A DNA stretch of 64,000 nucleotides from Azolla caroliniana. Lineage: Eukaryota; Plantae; Polypodiophyta. The notes below the pieces were generated by a model, which saw nothing but the letters and a program-made list of their open reading frames with translations, ran no database searches and was not told where the DNA came from. Each line of letters starts with the position of its first letter. The stretch's first letter is position 1. Below are positions 1 to 58,834 of this stretch, one piece after another. The position numbers and the translations under genes are program-made. The stretch is taken from assembly GCA_043228905.1 (NCBI GenBank), contig JBHGNT010000009.1, positions 13,268,001-13,332,000 on the forward strand, written 5' to 3'.

Positions 1-2093
1 AATGGCTTGGACGAAAGCATCTGTCTTCGAGTCCTCACGTATGGTATCGATAATGTGGGAATCCAAGGGCATACCGAAAACCTGCGTTGCTTGCAGTCGT
101 GCCGGTCCCAGGATTACTTGCTTTTGGTTACCGAAAGTTGGCTCGCTAGGACGTAGTGCTAGATACGAGCGCCGTGATAATGCATCTGCCTTCCCCAAAT
201 GATATGTAATTTTGAAGTCGAAATGAGTGAGGAATTGGACCCACCGAGCTTGACGTCGATTTAACACACAAGCATTCTGAAAGTAGGCAAGGTTTTTGTG
301 ATCACTGAATATGGTGTCTTGATGAGAAGATCCCTCTAGGAAATGCCTCCATTGCATAAAAGAGTATACTATTGCCAATAGCTCCTTATCATGAATTTCA
401 TAGTTGATTTCGGTGGCGTCAAACTTGCGTGAGTGGAAAGCCACAAGATGTAGCTTTTCATCATCGCCTTGTTGTGACAAAATGCTATGCAAGGCGAAAT
501 CTGACGCGTCTACTTCGATGATGAATGGTTTTTCCGGAGCTAGAATAGAAGCTGATGTAAATGCCTTCTTAAGACTCTCAAAAGCCATGTCTGCTTCTTC
601 AGAGCAAACGAATGATTGTTCCTTCCTAGTAAGTTGTGTGAGAGGCAGAACAAGCTTTGAGTAATCCTGTATAAACTTGTGGTAGAAATTGGCAAAGCCT
701 AAAAAGCATTGCGCATCTCGCAATGAACGCGGAGTCTGCCACTCTACCACGGTTTTGACCTTAGCTGAATCCATGGAGATGCCTTCCGAGGAAATGACAT
801 AGCCCAGAAATTCTACCTGGTTGCACTCGAAACTACATTTTTCCAGCTTTGCATAAAGACCATGTTCTTGAAGTCGTTTTAGTACTAACAGTACATGAGA
901 ATCATCCTCTTCTTGGGTCTTCGAATAAACCAGTAGATCATCCAAATAGATGATCAAACAAACATCCAAGAGATCTCGGAATATATCATTTGCCATGTGC
1001 TAGAAGACTATTGGCACATTAATGAGGCCAAATGGCATGACCGTATACTCGAAATGCCCATATCTGGTGCAAAACGCGGTCTTCCATTCATCTCCTAGTC
1101 GGATCCGTACGAGGTTATATGCTCCTCGTAAGTCGATCTTTGTGAAGAACCTTGCACCATTGATCTGTTCTAAAAGACTTGAGATAAGGGGAACTGCATA
1201 ACTATTCCTCATGGTGACCTTATTCAAGCCACGATAATCTACGACGAGACGAAGTGATCCATCCTTTTTCTTGACGAAGAAAATGGGTGTGCCGTCCGGA
1301 GATTTCGAATGTCGAATGAAACCATTTGCAAATTCTCCTCGATATAGACTCAAAGGACTTCTAGCTCAGTTGGTGACAAATTGTAGATTGGTCCCCATGG
1401 TGGCTTTTTTCCTGGTTGTAAATCAATGGGGCAATCATACGGTCGATGGTGAGGAAGCATATTGGCCTGTACTTTATCGAAGACATCGGCATAATGACGA
1501 TACTTCTCTGGAAGTTGAAGACTCCTCTTTAGTGGTGTTGGAGGGTTTTACTGATACTGCAAAAAGAAACATTTCTTTCTTGCATCCTTCCTCACACAAT
1601 TGATGTAGCGAAATGGTTGCAATCTTATTAGTAGATCCTCGGGTTTGTCGATACCGGATTTCTCTTGTTCTCCAATCTATGTCTGGGTTATGTAATTCAA
1701 ACCATGGTAATCCCAAAAAAATGGGATGTTTTGGGATACTAATTATATTAAAGGATACTACACATGCTAAATTATCTAGGACAATATTAACGGGCTCTGA
1801 CTCTTCTATGATATTTCCAGAAGCAATGGGATGACCATCAATGACTACTACAGAGGCTGGACACGAGATTTTTCTTAGGGATATCTGATGAGCTTGGGAA
1901 AAATTCCTATCCATGAAGCAAGAATTAGCTCTGGAATCTAGGAGTGTTGAGACATGTACTGGAGAGGTACTTTTAGTACTAACTGTTACTTGGGCTAAGA
2001 ACACATTGCTAACGTTCTTAGAGGGAATGGAACCACTAATGGGTTGCACAGATCTACGGATGTCCAACCAAACGGCTCCTATTTTGGCTAGAC
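1..2093 (-). pseudogene. pol: Chromovirus A pol (protease-RT-RNase H), disrupted
   Basis: ORFs 1474..2067 (aspartic protease) and 1000..1353 (RT) plus RNase H residues near 200-560; broken by stops and frameshifts. Confidence 0.88.
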
Positions 2094-3242
2094 TTAGTCA
2101 TTTAACTCTTCTTCTAACTGACTAAGGACATCAAATTTGTTCGATAGATTTGGGCTATTAGTACTATTAGGACTATCAGATATTCCTACTGAAATAAACT
2201 CGGGTTTAGTACAATTAGAACTAGCAACTATTTGGTTTACCTGTCTTCTTGGCCTATGGGGACAGTTCACTGCAATATGCCCTGGTCCACCGCAATAAAG
2301 ACATAGTCGATTTGCTCGACGTCATTGGTTTTCTTCTTCCGATAATGGTCCACGACGACGTGTAGTGTCAATTTCCATCAGAGTTGGAGTATTCACTAGA
2401 GATGCATTATATGACTCCCTTGGAAAATATTTTGCTACCACTAAGGTGTAGGTGGGCTCTGATCTTTCCCTTGGCATTTGGAACTGATGTTCCGAACGTC
2501 ATTCGAAAGGATGGTTGTTGCATCTCACCGCACGACTGATTGCTTCTATCAATGACTTTGGTTCTTCGGGGAAGGTCAAGAGTAAATCCTTGCCATCGTT
2601 ATGTAGACCATAACGAAATTTCTCCATTAGTGCTTGGTCATCCCAGGGGATATCGGAGGCGAGTAGGTGGAAATCTGCAGCGTATGCGGAGGCTGGACAA
2701 TCACCTTGACGTAATCATCGGATTTTGTTGATTGTTGTCCTGCTATCAGTATCTCCAAAACAGGCTTTAAACTCACTTAAAAACTCTTCAAAATTGTTTA
2801 ATAAAGGAAATTCCTTTTCTAACAATGGAGAGAACCATGCCAAAGTTGAGCCACTTAACAACGTGCCTACTAAACGCACTCGTGATGCATCGGTGGGATA
2901 TCGAGAAGGATGCATTTGAGTGACTAATCGTGCCTGATTAAGAAATCCTCTAAACTGCGATCGTGTTCCATCGAATTTCATGGGAAGGCCGATCTTGGGT
3001 TCTTTATGAATCCCTTGCGTACTGGATCCTTGTTGTTGCATCATTACTATGGTTGCTTTGAGTTGTTGCACACGTAATGCTAGTTCCCCATGTTGTTGTT
3101 GCGTCTGCTGCTTCTCTAAGGAGATTTGTTGAAGCTCCCCCAACAGTCGTTGATTTTCTTGTTCCAATGCGAGAAACTTCTCTTTAAAGCATTGCAACTC
3201 CAAGAAAACGGATTGATGTTCTTGAGCGCTAACAGTGGCCAT
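2094..3242 (-). pseudogene. gag: Chromovirus A gag, disrupted
   Basis: ORF 2715..3242 ends at a CGA>TGA-type stop; Gag homology to element B continues through the CCHC knuckle to TAA at 2094-2096. Confidence 0.88.
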
Positions 3243-3336
3243 AGTATGAGAGAAAAGAGGAATAAGAGATTAGTATGAAGGGAGTGAGAAGTAAGAAGAT
3301 AAGGAAGAGAAGGAAGGAAACAAAATCGGCTCAAAC

Positions 3337-3472
3337 TGTCCGCAACACTACTAAGACAGAGAAGTACTGTCAGGAACAGTACTAAGACAGAGAAGGAATT
3401 AGTACTAAAAGATGAGGATTAGTGCTAAGGGAGATGTAGAACTCTTGAGAGAAGGAAAGAGTGAGTGAGTGA

Positions 3473-3527
<55 letters not shown>

Positions 3528-3826
3528 TGATGATAACAAAATATATATATTATGTTAAGAGAATATACAATAGTAGCTAGGAGGCTTAAGACTGGCGTTG
3601 AACCGATTTGGTTCGAAATAATGCCTTGTGCCTCCTTTTATAGTGTTCTCAGGACTACTCCTGAAGTTTCTAGAATATTCTAGAGAAATTTGGAATATAC
3701 AATAATTTTCTATAGTAAAACCTAAATGAAAATAATATTTTTCGTATTACAACATATAGTCTAATGGTCAAGATCTCGACCCATGTAACATAAGGTCATG
3801 GGATCGAGTCTTGTCATATCATGACA
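3337..3826 (-). repeat. LTR of element A (shared with an upstream tandem copy)
   Basis: Minus-strand TGTCA...GACA termini, TATAAAA at 3642-3636, (GA)n/(GT)n in U5. A 31-bp duplication of the U5 end (3337-3364 / 3368-3395) makes 3368 an alternative boundary. Confidence 0.8.
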
Positions 3827-4091
3827 CTATCCCCCCTTTAACTCGACAAGTGTCACGAATCGTTTTGGATTGAGGATCCGGTTTGTCTGGATATTGACGA
3901 TGGAAGTACTCAAGAAGAGAACGAGCATTGGTCACATTCTCTATTGGTTCCCAAGTACGCTCGCTGGGACTATATCCTAGTAAAACTTAAATGAAAATAA
4001 TATCCTTCGTATTACAACATATAGTCTAATGGTCAAGAGCTCGACCCATGTAACATAAGGTCATGGGTTCGAGTCTTGCCATATCATGATA
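3827..4091 (-). mobile_element. Internally deleted upstream tandem copy of element A: 5' LTR stub + chromodomain tail + PPT
   Basis: 3978-4091 repeats the first ~114 bp of the LTR. 3980 to 3819 encodes LGYSPSERTWEPIENVTNARSLLEYFHRQYPDKP...GGIVS*. PPT AAAGGGGGGATAG at 3839-3827. Confidence 0.85.
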
Positions 4092-7201: not shown

Positions 7202-7653
7202 TGTTGAGAATCAAGCTCAACATAGCACAACATGCAAACACACCTTTTGAGAATCTATGATTACTCAAAGGCCAAGAGTCACACCACTACTCTCTACACA
7301 TTAACTATGTGTCATAGATTCATACTCTATGACACATAACTAATGAGTTACATATTCCCCATGACTATGAGTCTTCACATTCCCCAAGAGAGAGAGTGGT
7401 TGTTGTAAAGTTAATGAAGAGAGAGGGTGACTCTATATAAAGCACCCTCTTCATACTTCATACTAAGTCAGTTGTGAATCCTTGTTATGCTACATTTTGT
7501 AATTCTTATTCTACTTGTGAAATATACACCTTCTTCTTGAGTATTCCTTTTTCTATCTATCTTGTGTTCTCTCATCTCTCCTCTAATTCCTCTCACACAT
7601 ACACATTGCACACATCTCTTCCGCTACACAAGAATCACCAGCGATTCTTTACA
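7202..7653 (+). repeat. 5' LTR of Copia D
   Basis: Direct repeat of 17373-17824 (about 16 substitutions by eye); TATATAAA near 7434. Confidence 0.95.
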
Positions 7654-7820
7654 TGGTATAAGAGCGATTTGGTAGCTCAATCTAGCCCACTCGCCTTATC
7701 GTGATCGTGTGTTGTGCTCTACGCCAACGTTCAAGAAGAACCGGCTCATCGCTATCATAATACTACTACATAGCTCGTGTTCAAGAGAGAAGGAAAAGAA
7801 GAAAGGAATCTTAATCAACA

Positions 7821-10560
7821 ATGAATACTCAAATGGGGAGCGCTCTCCCTAGCGAGAAGTTGGATCGCAAAAACTTTGCATCTTGGGAGTACAAGATGCA
7901 TCAATACCTTGTCGGCCAAGGCTATTGGAGTTACATCAAAGGAGCACAAGAAAACCAACCAAACCTGAAAGACGTTGACTATGCAACTTGGGAGCAAGCG
8001 GCAAGCCGATTGATGTATTGCTTGCCGACATGTGTTCACGACCAAATGCTCCGCTACATTCGAGAAGCCGAGACGCCGAAGGAAGCGTGGGAGAATCTAC
8101 GAAAGATTTTTGCCGCCAACACTACCGCGAGAAAGCTTCAACTCCGCCAAGAGTTGAACAACATCCAACAAAGGGATATGTCCATCACAAGTTACACCTT
8201 GAAGATCAAGGAGCTTTGCGACTCGCTTGGCTCGATAAGCGTCAATGTGGACGATGATGAGATGGTGCAAATATGCCTCGGTGGCCTTGCACCACGATTC
8301 GGCGCGATGCGAACTGCCATACTAGCAAAGAGAATCCACCCTCCTTCTTCGATCTTCAATCTATGTTGTTGGTCGAAGAAAACCATGTTCGAACAAGGAG
8401 CAACGCCTTGGAAGGCCACATTCTCTACACGCATTCGGATGGAGGAAGAGGACGCGGCCGTGCAAGAAGAGGCCGATTCGGCCAAGGACGAGGCAGACGA
8501 GCCCCGACTTACAAAAACAACTCGCAATTTCGGCATCAAGATGGAAGCCATCGAGGAACCTTTGAAAGAAGGGGGAGCCACCATTCCGGTCCAAGTCGAC
8601 AAAACTCGGTCGACTGCGGATATTGCGGAAAAATCAGTCACCACGAAGAAGAATGTCGTAAGAAGATACGCAAGTCAGCTTCCACTAGCCAACAACTCAC
8701 CTACTACGCCATCAACTCCGACTATGATGATTGTGGCGGAATGTTCGTGATGAGACATAGATTGAATTCTATGTTGGCCTCTACTTCTACTAGTGCCCCC
8801 GGTCCGGAAGACGTATGGTTCGTCGATTCCGGTGCCTCGAACCATATGACATCACATCAAGAACGGTTCCGCGAACTTCGAGAGCCGGAACTACCCGGCT
8901 ATGTCGAAACCGGAGACGACACTATGCATCCAATTCGGCACATCGGCAATATTCCGTTCGGAGAAGAAGGTAAGCAAACTTACATTAAAAATGTCTTGCA
9001 TGTACCAATTATCATGAAGAATTTGATCTCCATTGGCCAAATTGTAGAGCAAGGAATGCAAGTACGATTTAATCAAGGTGATTGCTTCATCGAAAAAGAG
9101 GGCCGACTCATCGCTCGTGGACGAAGAGAGGGCCGAATGTTCATTCTTGACTCACACGAGATGAAATCGGCCATGTTTGCAAAGGGCATGAAAGCCGATT
9201 CCGACATAGAGTTATGGCACAAGCGGATTGGCCATATCAACCTCCAAAAGCTCAAGGCAATGCAATTGAAAGGAGTCGTCATCGGGCTCCCAACATTCAA
9301 CGAGAAAGAGATTGAAGGCGTGTGTGCCACTTGCCAATTTGGCAAGCAACATCAACACCCATTTCCGAAGGAGTCGTCAAAAGCTCAAGGCAATGCAATC
9401 GAAAGGAGTCGTCATCGGGCTCCCGACATTCAACGAGAAAGAGATTGAAGGCATGTGTGCCACTTGCCAATTTGGCAAGCAACATCAGCACCCATTTCCG
9501 AAGGAGCGGAACGTGAGCAAAGGCATACTCGACGTAATTCATTCTGATGTATGGGGTCTGGCTCAGACAACGACATTCGGCGGATGCCGATACGACATGA
9601 CCTTTATCGACGAATTCTCTAGGCAAACTTGGATCTATCCGATGCGGCAAAAGAGCGAAGTGTTCAGACATTTCCAAAAATTCAAGAGTGGACTCGAAAA
9701 AGCTACGAGGCGACATGTACGGTGCCTTCGGTCGGATGGAGGCAAGGAGTACGTCTCCGATGAATTTTTGGCGTTTCTACGGAAAGAAGGAATACGGCAA
9801 GAGTTTTCGTGTCGACATACGCCACGACAAAACGGAGTGGCCGAACGAAAGAATCTGCACATACTCAAAGTAGCACGGCCCATGATGAACGAAAAGCACG
9901 TGCCGAACTCGTACTGGGCAGAAGCGGCTAACACAGTCGTATACCTGATGAATCGGTGTACGACATCCAGCGTGCATGACTTCACGCCGCACGAGAAGTT
10001 TTTCAGAAAGAAGCCGGACCTAGCGCATGTTCGGATATTCAGCTCCATTGCGTATGTGCACATCCCCGACGAAAAGCGACAAAAGCTCGACCCGAAGTCG
10101 GAGAAATGTATCCTCATCGGATACTCACTGGAGCAAAAGGGGTACAAGTGCTACAACCCTTCGACTCGAAAATTTCACGTAAGTTGAGACGTCGTTTTTG
10201 ACGAGTCCCCATCCTGGTACGCACCAGAGACAACTTCGACTCTGATTCCGCTCGACCCGGAATCTGCCGAACAAGAGATAGAAGATGAAGATAGACTTAT
10301 GCACATGTTCGAAGAAAGTCCGATCACGACCCGGCTGAGCGGACCACAAGAGCCTCCGAGCGATCAAAGCACATCTCGATCGAGTTCGAAGCTAGATAAA
10401 GGGAAGGCCAAAATGTTGGACTATGAAGACGATCATTTCGACGGCATTGAATCGACTCACTCCCTCGATAGTGAGTTCGAAGGCCTTGACATCCGAACAA
10501 ATGGAGTGAAGAAAGCCTTAGAATCCGAAAACGAGAAGCTCTGTTGATCCACCCGTGAAA
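7821..10560 (+). pseudogene. Copia D gag-protease-integrase, frameshifted
   Basis: ORFs 7821..8750, 8273..9448 (CGYCGKISH, WFVDSGASNHMT, LWHKRIGH) and 9312..10187 (HSDVWG, LRSDGGKEY, QNGVAER). Confidence 0.92.
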
Positions 10561-10565
10561 AGAAC

Positions 10566-13500
10566 TATAAAAACAAATAGCGTGCGGAAGCAATAAGAAA
10601 CAGAAAACAGAGAACAAGTTTAACGAAGAGCTTAACAGTACGCGGGAGAGATAGAGAGAGCAAGAATCTCTATTCCAAAAATTATATCAATGCTCTGTAC
10701 ATCATATGTGTTCAACGAACACTTTTATACAAGTCCATATGGATTGACAGAACTACGGTGTACTTCAATGCTCACTCAGGCGTCTGATACTAACTACAAG
10801 AGTAATAACTCCCTAGTAGTCTAGCTCCTACTAAGCTTCCAGTTACTGATGGATCCGGCTAACCTGCTCCCCAACTCACCGGCTCTTTTGCTCATCGAGT
10901 GCTCACCGGCTCACCGATCTGTCTCACTCACCGGCTCAGGCTTATCTAGCTGATCCGGCTCCAATTGAGCTTGCTCGTGCTCCTCGTCCAGTCCGGTTCT
11001 GTTTGCCGCGACCCCTCTTGTTCTGCGCACCTCGACCTCCTCGGTCGGCTTGTTTGCTCAACAGGCCCAATTCAGCTCCCTCGTTGTTGTGACTTCGGCG
11101 CGTGCCGGTTCGCCAATTCCTTCGTGTTGGCGTCCACTTTCGCTGCCTTCTCGTCCTCTTGGCCTTGAATTGATCCGGTTCTTCTGAATTTGTTTGTTGA
11201 ACCAAATCGACTGTCTCCGATTCATTCCAGCTCTTGTCCGAATCGGTTGCTCCCGATTCGTCTTCTGGTTCCAGGCCCTTCACCACATCGGACCATGTCC
11301 AAGTCTTCGCCTTCTTCTTCCAGTCGGCTCTGTCCTTCTTGACTCTGCCCCCGCTGCCGCTTGTTCCGACTTGTTTGGATGTGTCGACTTCCTTTGTTGA
11401 CTCGGCTCCTTTCTTCTTCATGACTCTCCCTTCGTCGGTTCTTCCCTCACCGGCGCAATCGGCAATCTCTTTGCCTTTGCCCGTTCTGGTGACTTTGCTC
11501 GTTCTCCCCCTCAAGTGTGGCACGTCGAGATCTTGAACACCAAGCATTTTGGTGAAGTGCTACAACTTGTCTGATCCAAGTGGTTTGGTGAAGATGTCGG
11601 CAACTTGCCGATCCGTGTGAACATACACCGAAGTTTGACCTCACCGCTCAGGACATGCTCACGCACGAAGTGATAGTGCACTTCTATGTGCTTTGTGCGA
11701 GCATGGAATACGGGGTTCTTGGCGAGCTGCATGCTGCTTATGTTGTCACAGTAGATCAGAATCGAGGTCGGTACCTTGATCCGTAGGTCTTGCAGTAGTC
11801 GCCGAAGCCAAATGGCTTCACAGGTGGCAATGGTAGCGCCCCGATACTCAGCCTCAGTGCTCGACAAAGCAACTGTTGGCTGCTTTTTGCTGCTCCACGC
11901 AACAGCCGCGCTACCTAGGGAAAACATGTAACCGGAGGTTGATCGGGGATTTAAGGCATCGTCGGCCCAGTCGGCATCTGTGTAACTGACCAGCACTTCG
12001 GTTATACCGCGCCGGTATAACAGGCCCTGGTCCTTCGTGCCACTCACATACCACAGTATTCGGTGCGCACACTGAAGTGCTCTACGGTCGGTTTTTGCAT
12101 GAATTGGCTAATCACACCGACCGAATAGCTGATGTCGGGTCGGGTGATGGTCAAATATATAAGGCTTCCGACAATTTTTCCGAACCGTTTCTCATCGCAG
12201 GTCAGTCTGAAGTCGGGACGGAGCTTCTGGTTCCGGTCCAGGTGAGTAGAGATAGGCCGGCATTCCATCATGCCCAACTTGTACAACATATTCAACACAT
12301 AGTGCCTTTGTGAGAGCAATATGTCGTTGAGGGTTCGGATCAACTCGATCCCAAGGAAATAGTGAAGGTCCCCTAGGTCCTTCATCTCAAACGCATCCGA
12401 CAACTGGGACTTGACTCAGCTGATTTCATCGAGTCCAGGTCCAGTGATGACCAGATCATCAACGTACACCAAGATGCAAACCAGACCGTCCGGACCTTGC
12501 CGGATGAAAAACGAAGAGTCGGACTTGGAGGCCGCAGACCCCATCTTACGCAACCAGTGCGTGATCTTCGCAATCCAAGCTCGGGGGGCTTGCTTCAGGC
12601 CATAAAGTGACTTCTTCTCTGTCTGGAAACCAGGGGTTTGTATCATAAAGACCTCTTCTTCAAGATCTCCTTGAAGAAATGCATTCTTCACATCCATCTG
12701 GTGAAAATGCCACCCCATTACCGCAACAACCACCAGTACCACACGAACCGTCGTCATCTTCGCTACTGGAGCGAAGCTCTCGTCATAGTCGATTCCGTGG
12801 GTCTGTGCGTATCCCTTCGGTACTAACCGGGCCTTGTACCGGTTAACTGAACCATCGGCATTGTACTTTACCTTGTACACCCACTTGCATCCGATTGGTT
12901 TATTGTGACGGGGAGGGTCAACCAGGTCCCATGTATCGTTGGCATCAAGTGTCTGCATCTCTTCTTCAATAGTGGCACGCCAATGTTCATCCTTTGCCAC
13001 TTCTGCGTAGCTCTCCGGCTCACGCACTTCCGCCACCTTGGTCATGTACGCATAGTGATGCGCCATGTACTCATTGTACCCGTACCGCTTAACAGGTTCC
13101 TTTTGGCGGGTTGACCGGCGTAACCCACCGTTACCTGGTTTGAGGCCCTTCTTGGCCGGTTCGGTCTTCAGTGCCGAAGAACCGTCATTTTCCTTTCCGG
13201 AGTCGGATCCGCTCTGATCCGACTCATCATTACCGGTTTCATAATCCGACATCTTCTTCTTCCCCTTCTCTTTGCGCGTGAACCGTCTCCTCAGTTCCTT
13301 GCGCGGGGAAAGCACGGCAGAGTCTTCACTACTCGCCGGTTCTTCTTCTGACTGGTCGGATTGACCCAGTCTCTCGTACAACCCACTCAACCGAAACAAT
13401 TCCGGACTCTCTTCTTCAGTCCCAGACCGGAGTCATCATCTTCTATTTGGACCGGTTCAGGCTCACTAGCCTCATCCTCCGGTATTGGGTTGGGGTCAGA

Positions 13501-15622
13501 AGTCGGAGCTGGTAAGGCATACCATGATGCCGTCTCATCAAACTCAACATCGCGGCTAACTCGGACCTGCTTCGTCCGGGGGTTATAACACTTATACCCC
13601 TTTTGCTCATGTGAGTAGCCGATGAGGATGCACTTCTCTGATTTTGCATCCAGCTTACTCCGCTTCTCCTATTCGGTAATTGACATGGTCGATCCGCTTG
13701 TGCCATAGGTCGATGTCCGATTCGACCTACTGTCCTTTGGAGAACAAGGCGGCGCCGACGTCATTGGTGTCGAGGATGAACATCCTTCCATCTCTGCACC
13801 CTTGCGCAATAATCTGGCCCTCCTCCTCGATGAAGCACCCAGGGTGTGTAAACCGCACTTGCATTCCCTGGTCGACGATCTGTCCGACCGACACTGGGTT
13901 CTTCGTGATAGTCGGAATGTGTAATACGTTCATCAGCTTCCCCCTCTGTCCGACATGGCTCAAGGGAACTTCTTCGACATGCACGATTGGGTGAGGAGTC
14001 TCATCTCCGGTTTAAACAACTCCCGGTTGTTCCGGTTTCTCCAAGAAGGAGAACCACTCTTTGTGGCTCGTCATGTGATTTGATGCACCGGAATCAACGT
14101 ACCACACTTCCTCCGATTTGGAAGTGGTCTTCTTCATCGAGTTTGCCTCGTGCTTCATCACCAAGGCTAGCCCATTACTGGTCTTCCCGGTTCCAGATCG
14201 TCTCTATCCTTGTGCGTAGTACGAGCTTTGTCAGTTCTCCCGACCAGTTTTGTCGGATCCAGATCTGTCCGAATCGGCGCGCTTCTTCCAGCACTCGCTT
14301 TCTCTGTGGCCCTTTTTGCCACAATACCAGCATTTCGTGGCGGATTTGTCTTGCCGGCCTCCGGCACCACCTTGACTCCCCCTGCTTGTGGAAGTCCTTG
14401 AACTGTTGTCGGCACGGTCTCTGTGCCGTCGGTCTTGCCCTTGTCGGCCACCTCCATTGCGTGCCGACCCGCCTCGTCTACCATGCCCACGGGGCCAATC
14501 CACCTCCGTGTACAACATCCAGCTGTCGGTGGGTGCACTTGTTGACGCACCGGCGTGGTTCTCCTCTACAAGGACCATCGACTGTAAGTCAAAAAATGAC
14601 GGCGTATTCTCCCTCGTACATACTGTTGTCCGGAAAGCTCAGAACTTAGATGCCAGGCCGCCAAGACAGACCTGTACCATCTCGTCTTCCTCTACAACGA
14701 CATTGATAGAGGCAAGCGAGTCACAGATCTCTTTGATTCGGGTCATGTAATCAGCCACCGACATGTCCTTCTGTCGGACATTGCTCAACTCCTGTCGGAG
14801 TTGCAGCTTCCGGGCTGTGGTGCTTGCGGCGAACACCTTTTTCAGGTTTCCCCAAGCCTCTTTCGGTGTCTTGGCATCTCGGACGTGGCTCAGCAGCTGG
14901 TCTCCGACACTGGATGCAAAGCAGTACATCACTCTACTTGCCGATTGTTCCCACACTGGAAAGTCCTTGTGTGCCGCATCAGGTGTTGTGTCGTTAGCTC
15001 TGTCGACATAGCTCCAGTAACCATGCCTAAGCAAGTATTGGTGCATCTTGTATGACCAAGATGCGTAGTTGGATCTGTCGAGCTTCTCCACCGGAAGCAA
15101 GCTAGCCATTCCTCTATCCATTGTTTTTTTTTTTCTTCTGTTCTTTACAAAGGTTAGGTTTTCTTCTTGCGAAAGCGAATGTCGGCTGCAGAGGTTCTCA
15201 ACCCTCGCGCTCTGATACCATGTAAAAACAAATAGCGTGCGGAAGCAATAAGAAACAGAAAACAGAGAACAGGTTTAATGGAGAGCTTAACAATACGCGG
15301 GAGAGACAGAGAGAGCAAGAATCTCTATTCCAAAAATTATATCAACGCTCTGTACATCGTATGTGTTCAGCGAACACTTTTATACAAGTCCATACGGACT
15401 AATAGAAGTACGGTGTACTTCAATGCTCACTCGAGCGTTTGACACTAACTACGAGAGTAATAACTCCCTAGTAGTCTAGCTGCTACTAGGCTTCTGGTTA
15501 CTGATGGATCCGGCTAACCGGCTCTTTTGCTCACCGGGTGCTCACCCGCTCACCGATCTGTCTCGCTCACCGGCTCAGGCTTATCCAATCGATCTGGCTC
15601 CAATTGAGCTTGCCGCTCAACA
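10566..15622 (-). mobile_element. Ty1/Copia element E nested in D (integrase core deleted)
   Basis: TSD AGAAC at 10561-10565 and 15623-15627; 5' LTR 15221-15622; PBS TGGTATCAGAGC at 15220-15209; 3' LTR 10566 to about 10975; gag 14639..15121, RT 12416..13399 (YVDD), RH 11511..12047; jumps from LWHKRIDHVN to KLDAKSEKC near 13680. Confidence 0.95.
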
Positions 15623-17323
15623 AGAACCCTGTAAGTCGATTCAGCTACAATGATTATATGGCGTACCATTACGCCTTTATGATGAAGGTAGCAACAGTAC
15701 GGGAGCTGGAAACCTTTTCCAAAGCCACGAAGGACCCACGATGGATCGAGGCAATGAACGAGGAGATGTGTGCACTACGCAAGAATGAGACATGGGATCT
15801 CGTTCCCCACTCACCGCACAAGAAGGCAATTGGCTGTAGATGGATCTACAAGGTGAAGTATAATGCCGACAGCTCCGTAAACCATTACAAAGCTCGACTC
15901 ATAGCGAAAGGATATGCACAAACACGTGGAGTCGACTATGAAGAGACCTTTGCCGCGGTGGCAAAGATGACAACGGTGCGGACCGTGATCGCACTTGCAG
16001 TGGCAAAAGGGTGGCACCTCCACCAAATGGATGTCAAGAACGCCCTTCTTCAAGGCGAATTAGACGAGGAGGTGTACATGGTACAACCACCCGGCTTCGA
16101 ATCGCGCATTCATCCAAAAGCCGTATGCCAACTCATGTAGCCTCTCTACGGCCTCAAGCAAGCACCACGTGCTTGGAATTCGAAGATTACGCAATATCTT
16201 CATCAAATCAGCTTTCGAATGTCAAAATCCGACAACTCCCTCTACGTACGACACGACTCTAGAATCCTAATTATCATCATCCTATACGTGGATGATCTAG
16301 TCATTGGAGGTGAAAGTCTAGTCGACATCAACAAGGTGAAGTCCCTCCTCTCCAACAAATTCGAGATGACGGACATGAAGGAGCTTCATTACTTCCTAGG
16401 CATCGAGGTAATTCGGACTCCAGCCGGCATTATGATCTCCCAACGGCACAACATTCTCAACTTGTTATACAAGTTCTGGATGACTGAGTGCAAATCGGTC
16501 GCTACACCTCTCGATCAAAACCTCAAACTAGATGTTGACTCCGGCACAGACGAGTGCGAGCCAACCCAATATCGTCAACTGATCGGAAGTCTCATCTATC
16601 TCACGATCACTCGACCCGACCTTAGCTATCCAGTCGGACTCCTCAGCCAATTCATGCAAAAACCACACGACATTCACTTGGATTGCGTTAAGCGAGTATT
16701 ACGATACGTGAGCGGCACAATGGATTACGGCGTTCTCTACGCATTGGCCACACCAATACGACTCGAAGGGTAAGGCGAACTGGGCAGGCTACAAAGTTGA
16801 TCGACAATCGACCTCCGGATTTGTCTTCTCACTCGGTAGCGGAGCAATATCTTGTAGTAAGAAGCAGCCTATCATCGCACTTTCGAGTACAGAGGCCGAA
16901 TACAGGGGCGCAGCCGTAGCTGCATGTGAAGTCGTATGGCTCAAGAGGATTTTGAAGGATCTGGATGTCCCCATCAAGGATCTGACTCCCATTTACTACG
17001 ACAATATGAGCAGTATATATCTGGCTCGGAACCCGGTGTTCCACACACGCACAAAGCACATTGAAGTGCACTATCACTTCATTCGAGAGCACGTACAGGC
17101 CAGAGATGTCAAGCTTCAACACATCAACACGAATCTTCAAACGGCCGACATCTTCACCAAAGCCTTAGGAGCCGACAAGCTTCGGCAATTCATGTCAGAC
17201 CTTGGATTGACGATCCCTGACTTGCCAAGCTTGAGGGGGAGTACAAGCGAGAACCGGATACTGTCCGAACCGGGTACAAGCCGAAGAGAACACCGGAGAG
17301 TGTCTGAACCGGATACCAATTGA
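15623..17323 (+). pseudogene. pol: Copia D RT-RNase H, disrupted
   Basis: ORFs 15538..16140 (YKARLIAKGYAQ, QMDVKNA), 16219..16773 (LYVDDL) and 16952..17323 (HTRTKHIEVHYHF). Confidence 0.92.
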
Positions 17324-17372
17324 ATCGGACATAAATCGAAAGGAACCAACCCGAGTTGAGCTTGAGGGGGTG

Positions 17373-17824
17373 TGTTGAGAATCAAGCTCAACATGGCACA
17401 ACGTGTGAACACACCTTTTGAGAATCTATGATTACTCAAAGGTCAAGAATCACACCACTACTCTCTACACATTAACTATGTGTCATAGAATCATATTCTA
17501 TGACACATAACTAATGAGTTACATATTCCCCATGACTATGAGTCTTCACATTCCCCAAGAGAGAGAGTGGTTGTTGTAAAGTTAATGAAGAGAGAGGGTG
17601 ACTCTATATAAAGCACCCTCCTCATACTTCATACTAAGTCGGTTATGACTCCTTGTTATGCTACATTTTGTAATTCTTATTCTACTTGTGAAATATACAC
17701 CTTCTTCTTGAGTATTCCTTTTTCTATCTATCTTGTGTTCTTTCATCTCTCCTCTAATTCCTCTCACACATACACATAGCACACATCTCTTCTGCTACAC
17801 AAGAATCACCATCGATTCTTTACA
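17373..17824 (+). repeat. 3' LTR of Copia D
   Basis: Direct repeat of 7202-7653, preceded by GAGGGGGTG and followed by the TSD. Confidence 0.95.
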
Positions 17825-18924
17825 TGTCCCAATATTCAAGTCACAATTGGGGATGTAGAAATCGAACAACACTTTTTTGTGCAAGATTCGGCTTCCCATT
17901 CAGTGATTCTTGGGCAACCCTACATAACATCATCAAGGATGGAGACTAAGGTGTTCGATAGTGGAGCAACATTCGCTCGGATGAAGAGTCTTGATGGTCA
18001 AAAGTCGGTTCAATTCTTGACAGTGCGAGCTAATCATGAGAGGAACTGAGATAGCCTTGGAGATGAGGCCTCAAATTTTTAACACAGACTATTGAAGAAT
18101 GGGGCAAAGATAGTCCAAGAAAAAGTAAGTCCCCGAAAAGAAGAAAGAATCAAGAAGGAAAACTATATTTAGCACCTAACGGTGTGTGTGGGATGACTAC
18201 ACTCAATGAGAGAGAGAAGTGCCAAGTTCAAAGCTTTGAACATTGGTTAAAAGAACAAGGAATATTAGAAGAAGAAGACAACATATCATGGGTCATTAAG
18301 GAAGCCTCATTTAACGATACAATCGGAGAAATAGAGAGTATCGTGGACTTGAGCCCTCATGAGCAACAGACTACTCATATCAACTCCATCAACATGTATA
18401 CCACCATCAACGAATGCCGACGAGGAGTTATGGAGGAGTTGGTCAAAGTAAATACAAAATATAAAATAGTAGATAAGAAGGTCAAGCCGATAGCTATTCC
18501 TTTACCGGAGGATAGTTGGCAAAGAATGAAGGAAGTTACCAAGGATCCAAGTCACAGAGACCCAAAAGGGATAGGCCATACCTTCACTGACGAATCAAGA
18601 GGGAAACTCCAAGTCGGGAAGGATGACTTCCTTCTCCCCGAAGAACAAGAAAGGTTTCGGATGATGCTTGAGAGACATGGGAAAACCTTCGCCTTCTCTC
18701 CACAAGAAATTGGATGTGCCGACCCGAAGATGATAGAGCCGATGGTGATATTTACGGTGTCGCATGTACCTTGGAACCTCAAGCCAATACCAGTTCCAAG
18801 AGCTCGCATTCCAAAGTTGATTGAGCTTCTAAAGGAATGTTACGACACAGGTCCCTCCGGATGGGAAGGGAGAAGAACAGTGTCGACAGGTCCCTCCGGA
18901 TGGGAAACGGTACGAGGAGCACTC

Positions 18925-47509: not shown

Positions 47510-47967
47510 TGTCATGATAATACTCACATCATGCATCAAAAGGATCATGACACTCACATTATGACTCGAAAGGATTTGAACCCACGACCTTGTTGTACAC
47601 ATGTCAAATCCTTAACCATTGTATTAATATTCTTATATGTATAGTCTCTAGAATATGAAATCTAATATCATAGGAATATTCTATATTACTCTACATTCTA
47701 GAATGACCTAGAATATTCTAGAGTGTTCTATACCACTAGAACCTTCTAGAATACTCTAGAGATCTTCTAGATTACTCTACAATCTAGGATAACCTAGAAT
47801 ATTCTAGAGTGTTCTCTATTACTTATAAATAAGGATCTACCACCCATCCCAAACCTAAATTGGTTCAACGCCATTTTGTAGCCTACTCTTTGTAATCCAT
47901 TTTACGCTTCAATATAATAATTCTCTTTCTATCTCTTTTTCTCTCTTTCTCTCTCTCAGTCTTGACA
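47510..47967 (+). repeat. 5' LTR of chromovirus B
   Basis: TGTCA...TGACA termini; TATAAATA 47824-47831; near-identical to 52192-52649. Confidence 0.97.
47696..47815 (+). promoter_or_regulatory. Heat-shock-element array in U3 of the B LTR
   Basis: Perfect aGAAccTTCtaGAAt at 47738-47752 and two copies of aGAAtaTTCtaGAg directly upstream of the TATA box; matches the nGAAnnTTCnnGAAn HSF consensus. Confidence 0.65.
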
Positions 47968-48054
47968 GTTTGAACCAATTTTTTCCTTTCATCTCTTTGT
48001 CTTCCACAAATTCTAACAAGTTCTCTTCTTCCTTCTCCTCTCCTCTCGTAAGCT

Positions 48055-49179
48055 ATGGAGTCCGTGAGCAAACAAGAATACATGCATGTTCTTTCTGAGC
48101 TCGACATGCTCACGAATAAATTTGTGGCATTAGAGCATGAGAATCAAAGGCTACTTGGAGATCTACAACACGTGAGTGCCGAAAAAGCTCAACAATATGA
48201 AGAGTTATCACAGCGGGTTCATCAACTCGAGGCGACTATATTGTCATTACGTGAGCAAGCGTCGGGGGCTCAGAACTCCCCTAGAGAGCCAAAGATCAGC
48301 CTCCCTGCCAAGTTTGATGGTACGAGGTCTTTATTTCGAGGCTTTTTGAATCAAGTTCGTCTAGTTATTCAGCTACATCCCAATCGGTATCCAACTGATG
48401 CTGCTCGTGTGGGATTAGTGGGAACTTTGCTATGCGGTACGACGTTAGCATGGTTCGCACCACTTCTCGAGAAGAAATCACCATTGCTGGAGGATTTCGA
48501 GGCATTTGTTAAAGAGTTTCAAGCTAGTTTCGGAGACACCGACAGCACTAGGACAGCGATAAACAAGATTTGAAGGCTCCGACAAGGAGATCGTCTTGCG
48601 TCGTCTTATGCAACCGATTTCCGTCTCTTGGCATGCGATATCCCTTGGGATGAGGCAGCTTTAATGGATCAATTCCGTCAAGGTTTGAGAAATGATGTCA
48701 AAGATCTTCTTCTTACTTTCCCTGAAGATCCGCAGTCACTTACAGAAGCCATTAGTCAAGCTGTGCGATGTGATAATCGCCTATTTGAGCGACGTTCTGA
48801 GCGCCAACAAATGTTACGCCGTCAACCTGAGCAGACTTACGCTTCCGTAGTCGCAACGCCTCCACAAGTTTCTAGACCCATTACAAGGGATGGCCCAACT
48901 CCGATGGAAATAGAGTCAACACAACGTCATGGGCCGTTATCAGATGCTGAGAAGCAACGACGTCGAGCGCATCGCCTCTGCCTGTATTGTGGCGGTCCAG
49001 GACATATAGCTGTAAATTGTCCACATAAACCTAGGTGTCAAGTATACCAAGTAAGTGCCCATGAAAACCCTACATCGAGTTCTATTGTTACTTTTAATAA
49101 CATAAATAAGCCTCATAGTCCATGCCATGAGAATAGATTCGATGTCTTGAGTCAATTAGAGGATGTGTTAAACGAGTAA
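48055..49179 (+). pseudogene. gag: Chromovirus B gag (one internal stop at 48571-48573)
   Basis: ORFs 48055..48573 and 48628..49179 are in the same frame; retrotransposon Gag domain, PTPMEI motif and CLYCGGPGHIAVNC. Confidence 0.92.
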
Positions 49180-49219
49180 GTCCGGCCAAAATAGGAGCCA
49201 TTTGGCTGGACCATCCTAG
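49167..49219 (+). promoter_or_regulatory. Predicted -1 ribosomal frameshift signal (gag/pol)
   Basis: G_TTA_AAC in the gag frame, 6-nt spacer, 11-bp stem GTCCGGCCAAA/TTTGGCTGGAC; the -1 frame is open into the protease ORF. Confidence 0.7.
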
Positions 49220-52199
49220 CTATGTAGAGTTAGTTCCTAGTCGTGGTTCCATTTCATCAAATCAAGTGAGTCGAGTTTTTTCAGCACAAGTCGAGCTTAC
49301 CACATCTGCATGTCATCGAGTCCTAGCCTCTACCCTTCTAGATTCTGGAGCCAACTCTTGTTTCATGGATCGTGAATTTGCCTTGTCACAAAACATCCTC
49401 TTGAATAAGCTTCCTAGCCCAGTAGCCGTAGGAGTCATTGATGGACGTCCCATAGCATCAGGAGATATAGTCGAGGAGTCCGAGCCAATTAGGATAGTTC
49501 TTGGCAATTTGGCAAGCATAATCTCTTTCAACATTATTCGTAGTCCGGAACACCCAATAGTTCTAGGTCTCCCCTGGTTTGAACTCCATAACCCGAAGAT
49601 TGATTGGATGAAAAGAACAATTGAGGAGACCCAGGAAAAAAGCACAAACGTGAGGCGGATATTAAACTACCAGAGAAATACAAGGAGTTTTCAGATGTCT
49701 TTGATAAGGTGAAGGCCAATACATTGTCGGAGCATCGGCCATACGACTGCCCTATTGACTTACAACCAGGGAAAGAACCTCCATGGGGCCCAATTTATAA
49801 TCTCTCCCCTATAGAGCTAGAAACTTTGCGGGAATATATTGATGAGAATCTGGCAAACGGATTCATTCGGCATTCTAGATCCCCTGCTGGTGCACCTATC
49901 TTCTTCGTTAAATGGTATTGCTATGGACCCCATGAAGGTACAAGCAATTTTAGAGTGGCAAACGCCCCTTTCAGTGCGTGATGTGCAATGTTTTCTCGGG
50001 TTTGCAAATTTTTATCGAAAATTTATTAAAGATTATTCCAAGGTTGTGCTTCCGCTTACTCAGCTCACACATAAAGATCGACCATTTATATGGAGTTCAG
50101 ATGCAGCCGAGGCATTCGAAAGCTTAAAATGAGCATTTACAACGGCACCTATCTTAGCACATGTCGACCCAACAAAACGCTTCATCCTCGAAGCCGATGC
50201 ATCCGATTTTGCACTAGGGAGTGTCCTCTCGCAGACCGGAGATGATGGACAACTACACCCTGTTGCCTTTCATTCACGAAAGTTTGAAGCTGCAGAGATC
50301 AACTATGAGATCCATGATAAAGAGCTTCTTGCAATCGTGGATTCGTTTCAACAATGGCGACATTTCCTAGAAGGTTCTTCTCAGCATATCATTGTCTACA
50401 ATGATCATAAGAACCTGACTTATTTCCAAAATGCTCGAGTCTTGAGTTGGTGACAAGCCCGGTGGGCGCAATTTTTGACTCACTTCGATTTTATCATCAT
50501 ATATCGCCCTGGGATGCAGCAAGGCAAAGCAGATGCTCTTTCTCGGCGCTCTTATATGGAACCTCGTCCAGGGGAACCTGCATTTGAGCATCAAAAACAA
50601 ATCCTTTTGGGTCCTAATCGATTACGATTAATGGTAGTTAACACCATAACAACTCTTGAAAATTCCACTCTTCTTGATTCCATTCGAGATCATATGACCA
50701 CTGATGATTTCGCCAAGGATGTTTTGGATCATATCGTCCCGGATCGTGCTTCTTACTCACGGTCGAAAAATCCTCGTAATGACTATTGTCAGTTCTATTG
50801 GCATGGTGGTTTTCTATTTCGACAAAATTTATTGTATGTTCCTGATGGTCCCCCACGGCTACAAGTTTTGCAACATTGCCATGACTCACCAATGGCTGGT
50901 CATTTTGGAGTTCACAAGACTCTAGAATTAATTTCTCGACGCTATTGGTGGCCTCGCCTTCGGCATTTTGTTGAGGAGTATGTTCGGAGTTGTGATATAT
51001 GTTGTCGATCAAAGAATCCTCGTCACCGACCCTATGGCTTACTACAACCACTTCCCATTCCGGAAACTCCTTGGAAGTCTATATCCTTGGACTTCATTAC
51101 TGATCTCCCTGTTTCAAAAGGTTTTGATGCAATTCTCACAGTGGTTGATCGATTTACGAAAATGGCACATTTCTTGCCATGTACAAAGTCGATTACTAGT
51201 CAAGAGGTGGTTGATCTCGTTATGCGGGAGGTATTTAAGCATCATGGTTTGCCGGATGATATTATTAGTGATCGTGGTCCACAATTCATCTCAAAGTTTT
51301 GGAAGCACCTGTTCAAACTTCTCCACATTTCAGTTAAGCTTTCATCGGGCTATCATCCTGAAACAAATGGCCAAACAGAGCGTACCAACCAGACATTGGA
51401 ACAATATCTTCGTTGTTTCATCAACTATCAACAAGATGATTGGGTTGCTTTTTTCCACTTGGCGGAATACTTCGCTTACAACAACTCAGCCCATTCTTCT
51501 ACAGGATATTCCCCATTTTTCGCAAATACGGGTTGTCATCCTCGGTGGACGATGAATGCGCATCCAGAAGTTCCTACCAACCCTGCTGCTGAGGATCTTC
51601 TTAGTCGCCTCCAAAAAATTCAAGCTAACATTCTCCACAATTTGCATGATGCTCAATTTACACACAAGAGGCTTGCCGATCGTCATCGTCTAGACTCCTC
51701 AAAAAAGTTCCACATTGGGGATCATGTATGGCTTCTCCAACACAACATCAAGACCACTCGACCTTGCAGTAAATTGGATTGCCAACGTTTTGGACCTTAC
51801 ATGATCACTGGTAAGATAAGTGATGTTGCATTTCGTCTTGACCTCCCTCCGCACATGCATCTTCATCCGGTGTTTCATGTATCCCTTTTGGAACCTTATA
51901 CTACAAGTTCAATTCTGGGCCGACTTACGACACCCCCACCACCTGTCGAGTTCTTGGACGGGCCTGAATTTGAAGTTGCTGTCGTTCTCGATTCTAAAAT
52001 CATGCGCAACAAGCTGTATTACTTAGTCGATTGGCTAGGTTATACCCCCAATGATCGAACTTGGGAACCCGCCGCAAATCTTTCCAATGCTGCAGAACTC
52101 GTCAATGCATTTCATCGCCAATATCCTTGTAAACCAGGTCCTAATACAAACCCTACGACCCATGAGACGTGTCATCGAAGAAGGGGGATAGTGTCATGA
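49180..52199 (+). pseudogene. pol: Chromovirus B pol: protease, deleted RT, RNase H, integrase and chromodomain
   Basis: LLDSGANSCFM; PIFFVK joined directly to GIAMDP near 49912; ORF 50475..52199 with HHCC zinc finger, SLDFITDLP, SDRGPQF, GQTER, GPY motif and YYLVDWLGYTPNDRTWEP chromodomain. Confidence 0.93.
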
Positions 52200-52649
52200 T
52201 AATACTCACATCATGCATCAAAAGGATCATGACACTCACATTATGACTCGAAAGGATTTGAACCCACGACCTTGTTGTACACATGTCAAATCCTTAACCA
52301 TTGTATTAATATTCTTACATGTATAGTCTCTAGAATATGAAATCTAATATCATAGGAATATTCTATATTACTCTACATTCTAGAATGACCTAGAATATTC
52401 TAGAGTGTTCTATACCACTAGAACCTTCTAGAATACTCTAGAGATCTTCTAGATTACTCTACAATCTAGGATAACCTAGAATATTCTAGAGTGTTCTCTA
52501 TTACTTATAAATAAGGATCTACCACCCATCCCAAACCTAAATTGGTTCAACGCCATTTTGTAGCCTACTCTTTGTAATCCATTTTACGCTTCAATATAAT
52601 AATTCTCTTTCTATCTCTTTTTCTCTCTTTCTCTCTCTCAGTCTTGACA
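52192..52649 (+). repeat. 3' LTR of chromovirus B
   Basis: Direct repeat of 47510-47967; the pol stop codon (GIVS*) lies in its first 8 bp. Confidence 0.97.
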
Positions 52650-56079: not shown

Positions 56080-56328
56080 TTCTGGAACCAAAACGTTCAC
56101 ACGCACACACAGATGAAGATGAAGATGAAGATGAAGATGAAGATGAAGATGAAGATGAGACAGAAAGTACAGGATCCTCCCTCCTTTAAACCGACGCTAA
56201 AACCTAAATTTAGGTATGGACTTACCTCCTGCTACTACTTGTAGAGCCTACCTCTCTCTCTCTCTCTCTCTTCCTGTCTCTGCGTATGTGCCGGTTAGTT
56301 TAGCTCAGCTAGTCAGTTATATGGGAAT

Positions 56329-58389: not shown

Positions 58390-58834
58390 GTTGGTCCATA
58401 CTCTCTTATACTTTTGGTGTTAGAACGCCATAAAAATCAGTTTATGACATTTAATGTAATTCAAAGTATTAGGTGAACAAAGCCTTTCTTAGGCATCAAG
58501 AAAGATTTTTGTGGACTATATTATATTTATATTATATGGGCTGAAAACTTTATATTATTCTTCATCTTCATGTGATACAGAATGATCGGGTCTCTGAATT
58601 GTGTTGAACTTTTACTTGCAGAAACTTATATTCAGTGTGTGGGCGAGAACGGCTGAGATCCGGAAATCTGTCACAACCAAGAGGCTAAAACTACAGCAAG
58701 CTCGTCAAGCACGAAAGATCAACTCTGTTTTAAGGACACAGGTAACCATTTTTTCTATGTGTGTACACACACACACACACACATCAGCCAAACTCAGAAA
58801 ATAGTCAGGTACTAGCGAGAAGATGAATTTGTTT

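What the first reader, a model, noticed from the sequence alone, without database searches (positions are those of the whole stretch)
3757..4076. tRNA-derived Pol III promoter module embedded antisense at the U3 edge of the element A LTR
Seen on the plus strand (antisense to the element) in both LTR copies: A-box-like TAGTCTAATGG (3757-3767; 4022-4032) and B-box-like GG(A/T)TCGAGTCT (3801-3811; 4066-4076). Box starts are 44 nt apart (tRNA spacing), with a tRNA-like AAGGTCATGGGTTCGAG run and a D-stem GTCT/AGAT in one copy. Acceptor and anticodon stems are absent; the segment instead folds as one long hairpin (TGGTCAAGAGCTCGACCCATG / CATGGGTTCGAGTCTTGCCA). Established: Cassandra TRIMs carry 5S rRNA-derived Pol III sequence in their LTRs. 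Inference: a coding, self-priming chromovirus has captured a tRNA-type promoter, possibly acting as a TFIIIC insulator, an outward Pol III promoter or an antisense-RNA source.
Basis: partly seen in the sequence, partly recalled or inferred. Interest (0 to 1): 0.8.

Follow-up and report, generated by a model that had tools for sequence, protein, structure and literature searches.

The report
Backwards tRNA promoter in retrotransposon ends
A dozen diverged families of protein-coding jumping genes, likely from mosses or another non-seed plant, keep a back-to-front copy of a tRNA gene's two promoter boxes at the outer edge of their end-repeats, which likely binds the RNA polymerase III factors and would shield the element's own promoter from silencing.

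Summary
The A box (3757, 4022) and B box (3801, 4066) lie antisense at the U3 edge of a self-priming Tcn1-type chromovirus LTR, at exact tRNA spacing. A second, diverged element in the window (47510-52649) has the same module. So do 13 of 14 scorable relatives from one metagenome accession series; 0 of 40 other relatives do. Across 12 families the tRNA-invariant bases are kept (B box 0.72, AGGT loop 0.75 column identity) while the spacers fall to background (0.32-0.37). This points to selection on a Pol III type-2 promoter, not to a copy-specific SINE insertion. The long hairpin is real in family A but not general. No terminator is conserved and there is no cloverleaf, so a DNA-level role (TFIIIC/TFIIIB-bound barrier beside the Pol II promoter) fits best. 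Binding and transcription are untested. Correction: the two copies are a 114-nt LTR stub and a shared middle LTR of a tandem, not the 5' and 3' LTRs. Closest known: Helenus TRIMs (non-coding, sense-oriented). The scan noted tRNA-type LTR boxes before in fungal genomes.

The parts
3757..3767 (+). A box (tRNA positions 8-19) of the module in the full LTR of element A; antisense to the element, 70 nt inside the LTR edge
3793..3797 (+). AGGTC, tRNA variable-loop equivalent; AGGT kept in 13 of 16 carrier rows, 0 of 40 non-carriers
3801..3811 (+). B box, 15 nt from the LTR edge; the off-consensus letter at 3803 is particular to this copy (98-99% of laid depth reads T in 4 runs)
4022..4032 (+). A box in the LTR stub
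4058..4062 (+). AGGTC variable-loop equivalent in the stub
4066..4076 (+). B box in the stub, no mismatch to the consensus used
4029..4082 (+). long hairpin pairing the bases after the A box with the T-arm/B box (family A; weak or absent in most other families)
3978..4091 (-). LTR stub (first 114 nt of U3), cut by a deletion that joins it to the integrase tail
   Evidence: loose ends at 3975/3980 show other copies continue into LTR or integrase there
3822..3980 (-). chromodomain tail of an upstream copy; the frame runs through the PPT and stops inside the LTR
   Evidence: Pfam Chromo E 1.3e-5
3827..3839 (-). polypurine tract
3337..3826 (-). full 490-nt LTR (TG...CA), shared middle LTR of a tandem
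3636..3642 (-). Pol II TATA box, 115 nt inward of the A box, pointing away from the module
3598..3609 (-). predicted self-primer at the R start, complementary to the PBS
   Evidence: Tcn1 self-priming predicted in PMC6317226 (passages)
3322..3336 (-). primer-binding site complementary to 3598-3609 (one G-U), not a tRNA PBS
1..3269 (-). gag, protease region, RT and RNase H of element A, with stops and frameshifts; runs off the window
47572..47626 (-). same module (A box 47626-47616, B box 47582-47572) antisense in the 5' LTR of element B
52254..52308 (-). same module in the 3' LTR of element B
47510..52649 (+). element B: diverged Tcn1-type chromovirus, 458-nt LTRs 99.8% identical, target-site duplication gcaat/acaat, self-priming PBS

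Best explanation
The module is a tRNA-derived A-box/B-box pair kept at the outer U3 edge of Tcn1-type chromovirus LTRs, and it likely works as a bound RNA polymerase III promoter that would act as a chromatin barrier for the element's own Pol II promoter. Shown: position (B box 15-62 nt from the LTR edge), fixed antisense orientation, 43-45 nt box spacing, invariant tRNA bases with spacers decayed to background, an AT-rich stretch on the A-box side, no conserved terminator or cloverleaf. Inferred: TFIIIC binds the boxes and places TFIIIB on the AT-rich stretch, between the module and the Pol II TATA box 115-200 nt further in. This would hold a nucleosome-poor boundary between flanking heterochromatin, where chromodomain integrases are thought to aim, and the LTR promoter. 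Facing outward, any Pol III transcription runs away from the genomic RNA start. Outward transcripts of variable length are a likely by-product.
For: Conservation pattern over 12 families: column identity B box 0.72, variable loop 0.75, A box 0.58 against spacer 0.37, inner U3 0.36, after-B 0.32. The same anchoring on 40 non-carrier LTRs gives 0.36 and 0.26; AGGT, which was not in the search pattern, is in 13 of 16 carrier rows and 0 of 40 non-carriers. Family A against L010: module 51 of 55 identical, inner U3 94 of 114, TATA-R 53 of 56. A-box variants above 4% in the three large runs fall on R, Y or N positions, apart from A14>G at about 4% in one run. Both boxes are kept, and the 45 nt upstream are 76-93% AT in 11 of 11 families with full sequence; TFIIIB is recruited to such AT-rich DNA within 50 nt (PMC13578239, passages). 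T4 lies inside the LTR in only 4 of 12 families; the first T4 is 54-585 nt from the A box and absent within 900 nt in L011, so no defined small RNA is conserved. TFIIIB/TFIIIC barriers are known in yeast (PMC9540200, passages). The chromovirus RLG1 of Physcomitrium sits in heterochromatic islands yet is transcribed (PMC7466625, passages).
Against: No binding, chromatin or transcription data. PMC9540200 states that no homologues of animal or yeast barrier elements have been reported to act so in plants. Successful relatives lack the module: 40 other LTR starts and, read by eye only, Physcomitrium RLG1 and Selaginella SM-Tcn1. The fixed spacing and the invariant AGGT are more than a B-box barrier should need and could reflect an RNA constraint. 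In family A the hairpin arm varies only in ways that keep pairing (4039, 4042) while the loop varies. A-box-to-TATA distance is not fixed (115-198 nt). L020, inside a carrier clade, keeps only a B-box core (6 mismatches).
Confidence: 0.45

Rival explanations
1. The selected product is a Pol III antisense RNA: a SINE-head-like transcript read outward, which from the 3' LTR crosses the PPT into the integrase tail and tunes copy number or acts as a decoy.
For: Both boxes, fixed spacing and AGGT kept. Hairpin strong in the A group and L079. Fixed-register pairing 65.7% of cells against 27-50% for slid registers, with 9 pairs changed on both sides. Foamy viruses make Pol III hairpin RNAs from LTR A/B boxes (PMC3993851, passages).
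Against: No conserved terminator or length. Hairpin not significant in 11 of 16 rows and only marginal against shuffles (22 of 500). z of -1 or weaker in 6 of 8 modules folded. Antisense RNA to its own 3' end would be expected to feed silencing (inference).
Confidence: 0.25
2. The sequence is kept for a fold in the genomic RNA 3' end or in minus-strand DNA, just after the PPT and the pol stop codon, aiding plus-strand priming or RNA stability; the tRNA look is only ancestry.
For: Position next to the PPT. The sense strand folds nearly as well in family A.
Against: The invariant columns are the promoter bases, not a pairing pattern. Distance to the edge varies from 15 to 62 nt. The hairpin is not general. 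The sense-strand B-box complement does not match the self-primer across families (L011, L020).
Confidence: 0.1
3. The boxes steer integration: TFIIIC on the cDNA end tethers it to Pol III sites, or integrated LTRs serve as landing pads for Pol III-targeting elements.
For: The module sits at the very end of the linear cDNA. An earlier scan note reports landing pads in fungal LTRs (e1-10420520, unchecked).
Against: No tRNA gene in the 64 kb around either element. No nested insertion in front of the A box in the LTRs printed (not a systematic test). The stub's junction 44 nt upstream of the A box is a deletion into the chromodomain, not an LTR end.
Confidence: 0.1
4. Neutral relic of an old SINE or tRNA insertion, carried along in the LTR.
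For: No cloverleaf. Window copies score no Rfam hit. Some copies are worn (L020, L028, L032). All metagenome carriers come from one accession series, so they are not independent hosts.
Against: Neutral decay would erode boxes and spacers alike, but spacers are at background while T8, T16, A44, G46, T47, G53, T54, T55 and A58 equivalents are invariant in 12 of 12 families. Carriers fall in two integrase clades.
Confidence: 0.1

Closest known systems
Helenus / TRIMp3 (Kojima 2024, PMC10886601; parts 1-4 of 6 read, passages and supplement passages searched)
   Same: tRNA-derived sequence inside an LTR, conserved around boxes A and B, no functional tRNA, no role in priming; includes a Selaginella family.
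   Different: Helenus are non-coding TRIMs under about 1.3 kb with a tRNA-type PBS, and their module reads in the sense direction in the supplement LTRs seen. Here the hosts are gag-pol-chromodomain elements with a Pol II TATA box and self-priming, and the module is antisense at the outer edge. The paper notes that other Repbase LTRs also resemble tRNA but analysed only TRIMs.
Cassandra and Ajax TRIMs (as described in PMC10886601)
   Same: Pol III internal promoter in an LTR; tandem arrays occur.
   Different: 5S-derived, non-autonomous; in Cassandra the promoter drives the element's own RNA.
Foamy virus LTR Pol III miRNA cassettes (PMC3993851, passages)
   Same: Autonomous LTR element with A/B boxes and hairpins inside the LTR beside a Pol II promoter.
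   Different: Those have terminators and defined miRNAs shown by experiment; here there is no conserved terminator or hairpin, and the sequence is recognisably tRNA-derived.
Plant Tcn1 chromoviruses (PMC6317226, PMC2864245; passages, SM-Tcn1 supplement read)
   Same: Chromodomain integrase, self-priming, 5-bp TSD, TG...CA LTRs, moss and club-moss range.
   Different: No tRNA-like LTR module is mentioned in the passages searched; SM-Tcn1 and RLG1 LTR starts show none by eye.
tDNA/TFIIIC barriers and B2 SINE boundaries (PMC9540200, PMC8136502; passages)
   Same: tRNA-type boxes at chromatin boundaries; mobile in the case of B2.
   Different: Known from yeast and animals; here built into a plant LTR and untested.

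Membership tests
Helenus / TRIMp3 | tRNA-derived sequence with conserved A and B boxes in the LTR | tested here: met
Helenus / TRIMp3 | non-autonomous TRIM, short, no coding region | tested here: not met
   gag, protease, RT, RNase H, integrase and chromodomain present across elements A and B; B is 5.1 kb
Helenus / TRIMp3 | promoter oriented to transcribe the element | tested here: not met
   antisense in all 16 carrier rows; Helenus LTRs seen are sense
Helenus / TRIMp3 | tRNA-primed PBS | tested here: not met
   PBS pairs with the element's own R start
Pol III type-2 promoter | A box and B box at tRNA spacing | tested here: met
   0-4 mismatches at 43-45 nt in 15 of 16 rows plus L012; 11 of 640 shuffles reach 4 or fewer
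Pol III type-2 promoter | AT-rich upstream region; CAA start motif | tested here: inconclusive
   AT 76-93% in 11 of 11, but this U3 is AT-rich throughout; CAA within 12 nt in 4 of 12
Pol III type-2 promoter | downstream T-run terminator | tested here: not met
   T4 inside the LTR in 4 of 12 families; position not conserved
Pol III type-2 promoter | TFIIIC binding and Pol III transcription | not testable with these tools
   needs ChIP/CUT&Tag and stranded nascent RNA
functional tRNA gene | cloverleaf with acceptor, anticodon and T stems; Rfam score at or above 29 bits | tested here: not met
   ARAGORN 0 in the window and 30 loci; anticodon stem 28.8% paired; best RF00005 scores 15.8 bits (L008) and 11.6 (L061); none for window copies or L079
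SINE insertion | copy-specific, with own TSD and 3' tail | tested here: not met
   family-wide; no flanking repeat or tail visible; no SINE database was available
Tcn1 chromovirus | chromodomain integrase | tested here: met
   Pfam Chromo in A and B
Tcn1 chromovirus | self-priming PBS | tested here: met
   12-nt complementarity of PBS and R start in A and B
Tcn1 chromovirus | placement with reference Tcn1 RT sequences | not tested
   no named reference was in the trees

The most novel reading that the evidence does not exclude
Two lineages of autonomous chromoviruses in one non-seed plant group have each fixed an outward-facing tRNA-type promoter at the LTR edge and use host TFIIIC as a portable heterochromatin barrier, making these high-copy LTRs the first TFIIIC-type insulators in plants and a large class of mobile Pol III sites in the genome.
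Probability: 0.3. Interest if true: 0.85.

Novelty: new variant of a known kind. Interest (0 to 1): 0.62.

Why it matters
Small-RNA promoters in LTRs are described for non-coding TRIMs, where they are thought to drive the element. Here protein-coding elements that already have a Pol II promoter keep such a promoter backwards, under apparent purifying selection, in two integrase clades. That asks for another function. If it is a barrier, it explains how an element that lands in heterochromatin stays transcribable, and it gives plant biology a candidate insulator sequence; a 2022 review (PMC9540200) calls plant barrier factors largely elusive. It is directly testable with a 55-nt mutation in a reporter. 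The module may also inflate pseudo-tRNA counts in such genomes.

Tried and rejected
No whole genome is held, so no genome-wide copy survey or insertion-site analysis. ARAGORN and Rfam found no tRNA in the window copies. The PPT-LTR pattern in viral contigs gave 1 chance match in a phage-like contig; the protein scan there gave 3 distant loci that did not bear on the module. Sequencing runs: no RNA holder listed; 8 contigs of one run guessed to be RNA lay on the module but show neither strand nor expression. The absence of listed variants at 4055-4089 was not used, because places within about 30 nt of the stretch ends appear to be masked. Cloverleaf conservation rejected (251 of 500 shuffles as high). 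A general hairpin rejected. A link between the sense-strand B-box complement and the self-primer rejected (no match in L011, L020). One origin of all carriers is weakly rejected (AU p 0.028; LG+G4, 31 rows picked after seeing the 80-row quick tree, L005 counted as carrier though its LTR is cut). The QWRF gene did not fix the host: best hit a fern protein at 46%. Literature: nine searches listed no paper on antisense tRNA-type boxes in autonomous plant Tcn1 LTRs. The library lacks most subscription journals and Repbase entries.doc supplements of PMC2864245 and the cut sequence cells of PMC7466625 could not be read and may bear on this.

Full report
Observation. In tRNA numbering (recalled) this is T8 to G53 = 45, the canonical distance. 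The segment folds as one hairpin (z -4.4 and -4.2; 0 of 200 shuffles as stable). ARAGORN finds no tRNA and Rfam no tRNA match at E<=10.

Context. Element A lies on the minus strand. Its LTR runs 3826 to 3337 (TG...CA), with a TATA box at 3642-3636, a predicted self-primer at 3609-3598 and a complementary PBS at 3336-3322, then gag, RT and RNase H. Upstream are a PPT and a chromodomain tail (Pfam Chromo), and before those a 114-nt LTR stub (4091-3978). The two module copies are thus a stub and the shared middle LTR of a tandem with a deletion; contigs in four runs continue into integrase or LTR at this junction. Chromodomain plus self-priming fits the Tcn1 clade, reported from mosses and club mosses (PMC6317226, passages). 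The host is probably a non-seed land plant; this was not fixed.

A second family in the window. Element B (47510-52649, TSD gcaat/acaat, LTRs 99.8% identical) has a largely unalignable U3 but the same antisense pair at the same spacing in both LTRs. Of 5 A+B hits in 64 kb (shuffled mean 1.3, max 4), 4 are these Tcn1 modules.

Relatives, collected without regard to the module. An LTR start with at least 90 nt was found automatically in 52 and by hand in 2. The other 26 were dropped: no start found 21, too short 3, no chromodomain end 2. Of the 14 scorable loci from one accession series, 13 carry the antisense pair with 0-4 mismatches at 43-45 nt spacing, the B box ending 15-48 nt from the LTR edge (62 in element B); L020 keeps only a B-box core. 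Of the other 40, none has fewer than 5 mismatches antisense at 42-46 nt spacing, and one has 4 on the sense strand. With spacing relaxed to 39-52, L053 reaches 3 (antisense) and L069 1 (sense). Shuffled carrier LTR starts reach 4 or fewer in 11 of 640 trials. A sequence-only model of the module, searched over all 84 sources, found the training copies, their duplicates and one weak new site at window 30873-30945, and nothing below E 0.8 in non-carrier loci. Two relatives give weak full-model Rfam tRNA matches at the module (L008 15.8 bits, top of 2 hits; L061 11.6 bits, third of 3; threshold 29); L079 gives none.

What is conserved. Over 12 families, one row each, mean column identity is 0.72 in the B box, 0.75 in the variable loop and 0.58 in the A box, against 0.37 between the boxes, 0.36 in the inner U3 and 0.32 between B box and edge. 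Anchoring inflates box values, so the same procedure was run on the 40 non-carriers: 0.36 and 0.26. AGGT was not in the search pattern and is present in 13 of 16 carrier rows and 0 of 40 non-carriers. Within family A the module is as conserved as the TATA-R region (93% and 95%) and more than the inner U3 (82%). Among 703-1,954 contigs laid per large run, A-box variants keep the consensus, apart from A14>G at about 4% in one run. [quoted passage not shown]

What is not conserved. Cloverleaf pairing equals its shuffles (55.2 against 55.1%; anticodon stem 28.8%). The hairpin register is paired in 65.7% of cells against 63.2% shuffled (22 of 500) and 27-50% for slid registers. With the boxes fixed it is significant in 5 of 16 rows: W_A1, W_A2, L010, L071 and L079. 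A T4 terminator lies inside the LTR in 4 of 12 families, and the first T4 ranges from 54 to 585 nt from the A box. So the constant feature is a promoter sequence, not an RNA of fixed length or shape.

History. Carriers fall in two integrase clades: 13 rows with the window elements' relatives, and 4 rows sister to six non-carriers (quick tree of 80 rows). In a careful 31-row tree both branches are well supported and one clade of carriers is weakly rejected (AU p 0.028). Two captures, one capture with losses, or LTR exchange within a host all remain open. By eye, the LTR starts of Physcomitrium RLG1 (first 400 nt) and Selaginella SM-Tcn1 lack the motif. All metagenome carriers come from one accession series, so host breadth is unknown beyond the four coded organisms whose runs hold family A.

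Mechanism. Shown: an outward-facing A/B pair at the LTR edge, AT-rich DNA behind the A box (76-93% in 11 of 11), and a Pol II TATA box 115-198 nt further in. Inferred: TFIIIC binds and places TFIIIB on the AT-rich stretch (PMC13578239, passages), making a boundary between the flank and the LTR promoter, as TFIIIB/TFIIIC do in yeast (PMC9540200, passages). The chromodomain is thought to aim such elements at heterochromatin, and RLG1 is transcribed from such a setting (PMC7466625, passages). I put about 0.75 on a selected, factor-bound Pol III promoter and 0.45 on the barrier role in particular. Against it: no such barrier is reported in plants, relatives thrive without the module, and the fixed spacing, AGGT and family-A hairpin could mark an RNA function (0.25), with foamy virus LTR cassettes as precedent (PMC3993851, passages). 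Replication fold, integration steering and neutral relic get 0.1 each.

Comparison and novelty. It works like a TRIMp3 or SINE-head promoter in sequence but fails Helenus membership on three tested features: coding capacity, orientation (sense in the Helenus LTRs seen) and priming. Nine literature searches listed no description of this arrangement; Kojima notes unanalysed tRNA-like LTRs in Repbase, which I could not see. A single mosquito element with a tRNA dimer at its PBS is a different, copy-specific case (PMC3286476, passages). PMC11899658 (passages) reports that tandem LTR structures are common, so the tandem here is ordinary. Earlier notes of this scan describe tRNA-type boxes in fungal chromovirus LTRs as landing pads and an antisense tRNA relic in a probably fungal LTR (unchecked); no note matched this sequence or place.

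Verdict. Real, family-wide, apparently selected and not found in print; function untested. New variant of a known kind, interest 0.62.

Noticed in passing
L012:1063 and L012:6386 (minus strand): A second antisense tRNA-like A/B pair lies inside the protease-RT linker of pol in both diverged pol copies of this locus; nhmmer support is weak (E 0.73).
   Followed up: partly
L021:270-535 and L021:3680-3869: Three worn tRNA-like modules on both strands in an unidentified repeat, one with the same A-box type as L006/L007; also a solo LTR of the L032 family carrying a worn module.
   Followed up: partly
window:30873-30945 (+): Worn module-like stretch in a different LTR-like region next to a non-chromovirus RT; E 3.5e-4 with model R1 but 0.28 with the core HMM, where the reversed control reached 0.24.
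   Followed up: partly
window:3819-3830 (-) and 52185-52199 (+): The pol frame runs through the PPT and ends at a stop codon inside the first bases of the LTR; several related proteins end the same way.
   Followed up: no
window:3593-3603 (-) and 47862-47872 (+): The self-primer region reads GGTTCAACGCC, a B-box look-alike on the sense strand; the GGT start is not kept in L011 or L020, so probably coincidence.
   Followed up: partly
window:47510-47575 and 49860-49915: Element B has a short tandem duplication between the LTR edge and the module, and lacks much of RT (P0001 residues 229-373 missing) despite near-identical LTRs.
   Followed up: no
window:31715-31745: A stretch ending in CGCCA on the minus strand resembles a tRNA 3' end near a non-chromovirus Gypsy piece; earlier notes on this genome describe such sites in place of a PPT.
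   Followed up: no
window:21794-27299, 7202-17826, 56299-58476: A Copia element with 295-nt LTRs 99% identical, a nested Copia region with 454-nt LTRs 96% identical, and a QWRF/augmin-family coding region whose best hit is a fern protein at 46%.
   Followed up: partly
L069:6185-6245 (+): A sense-strand A/B pair with 1 mismatch at wider spacing in the LTR of a distant relative; chance not excluded.
   Followed up: no
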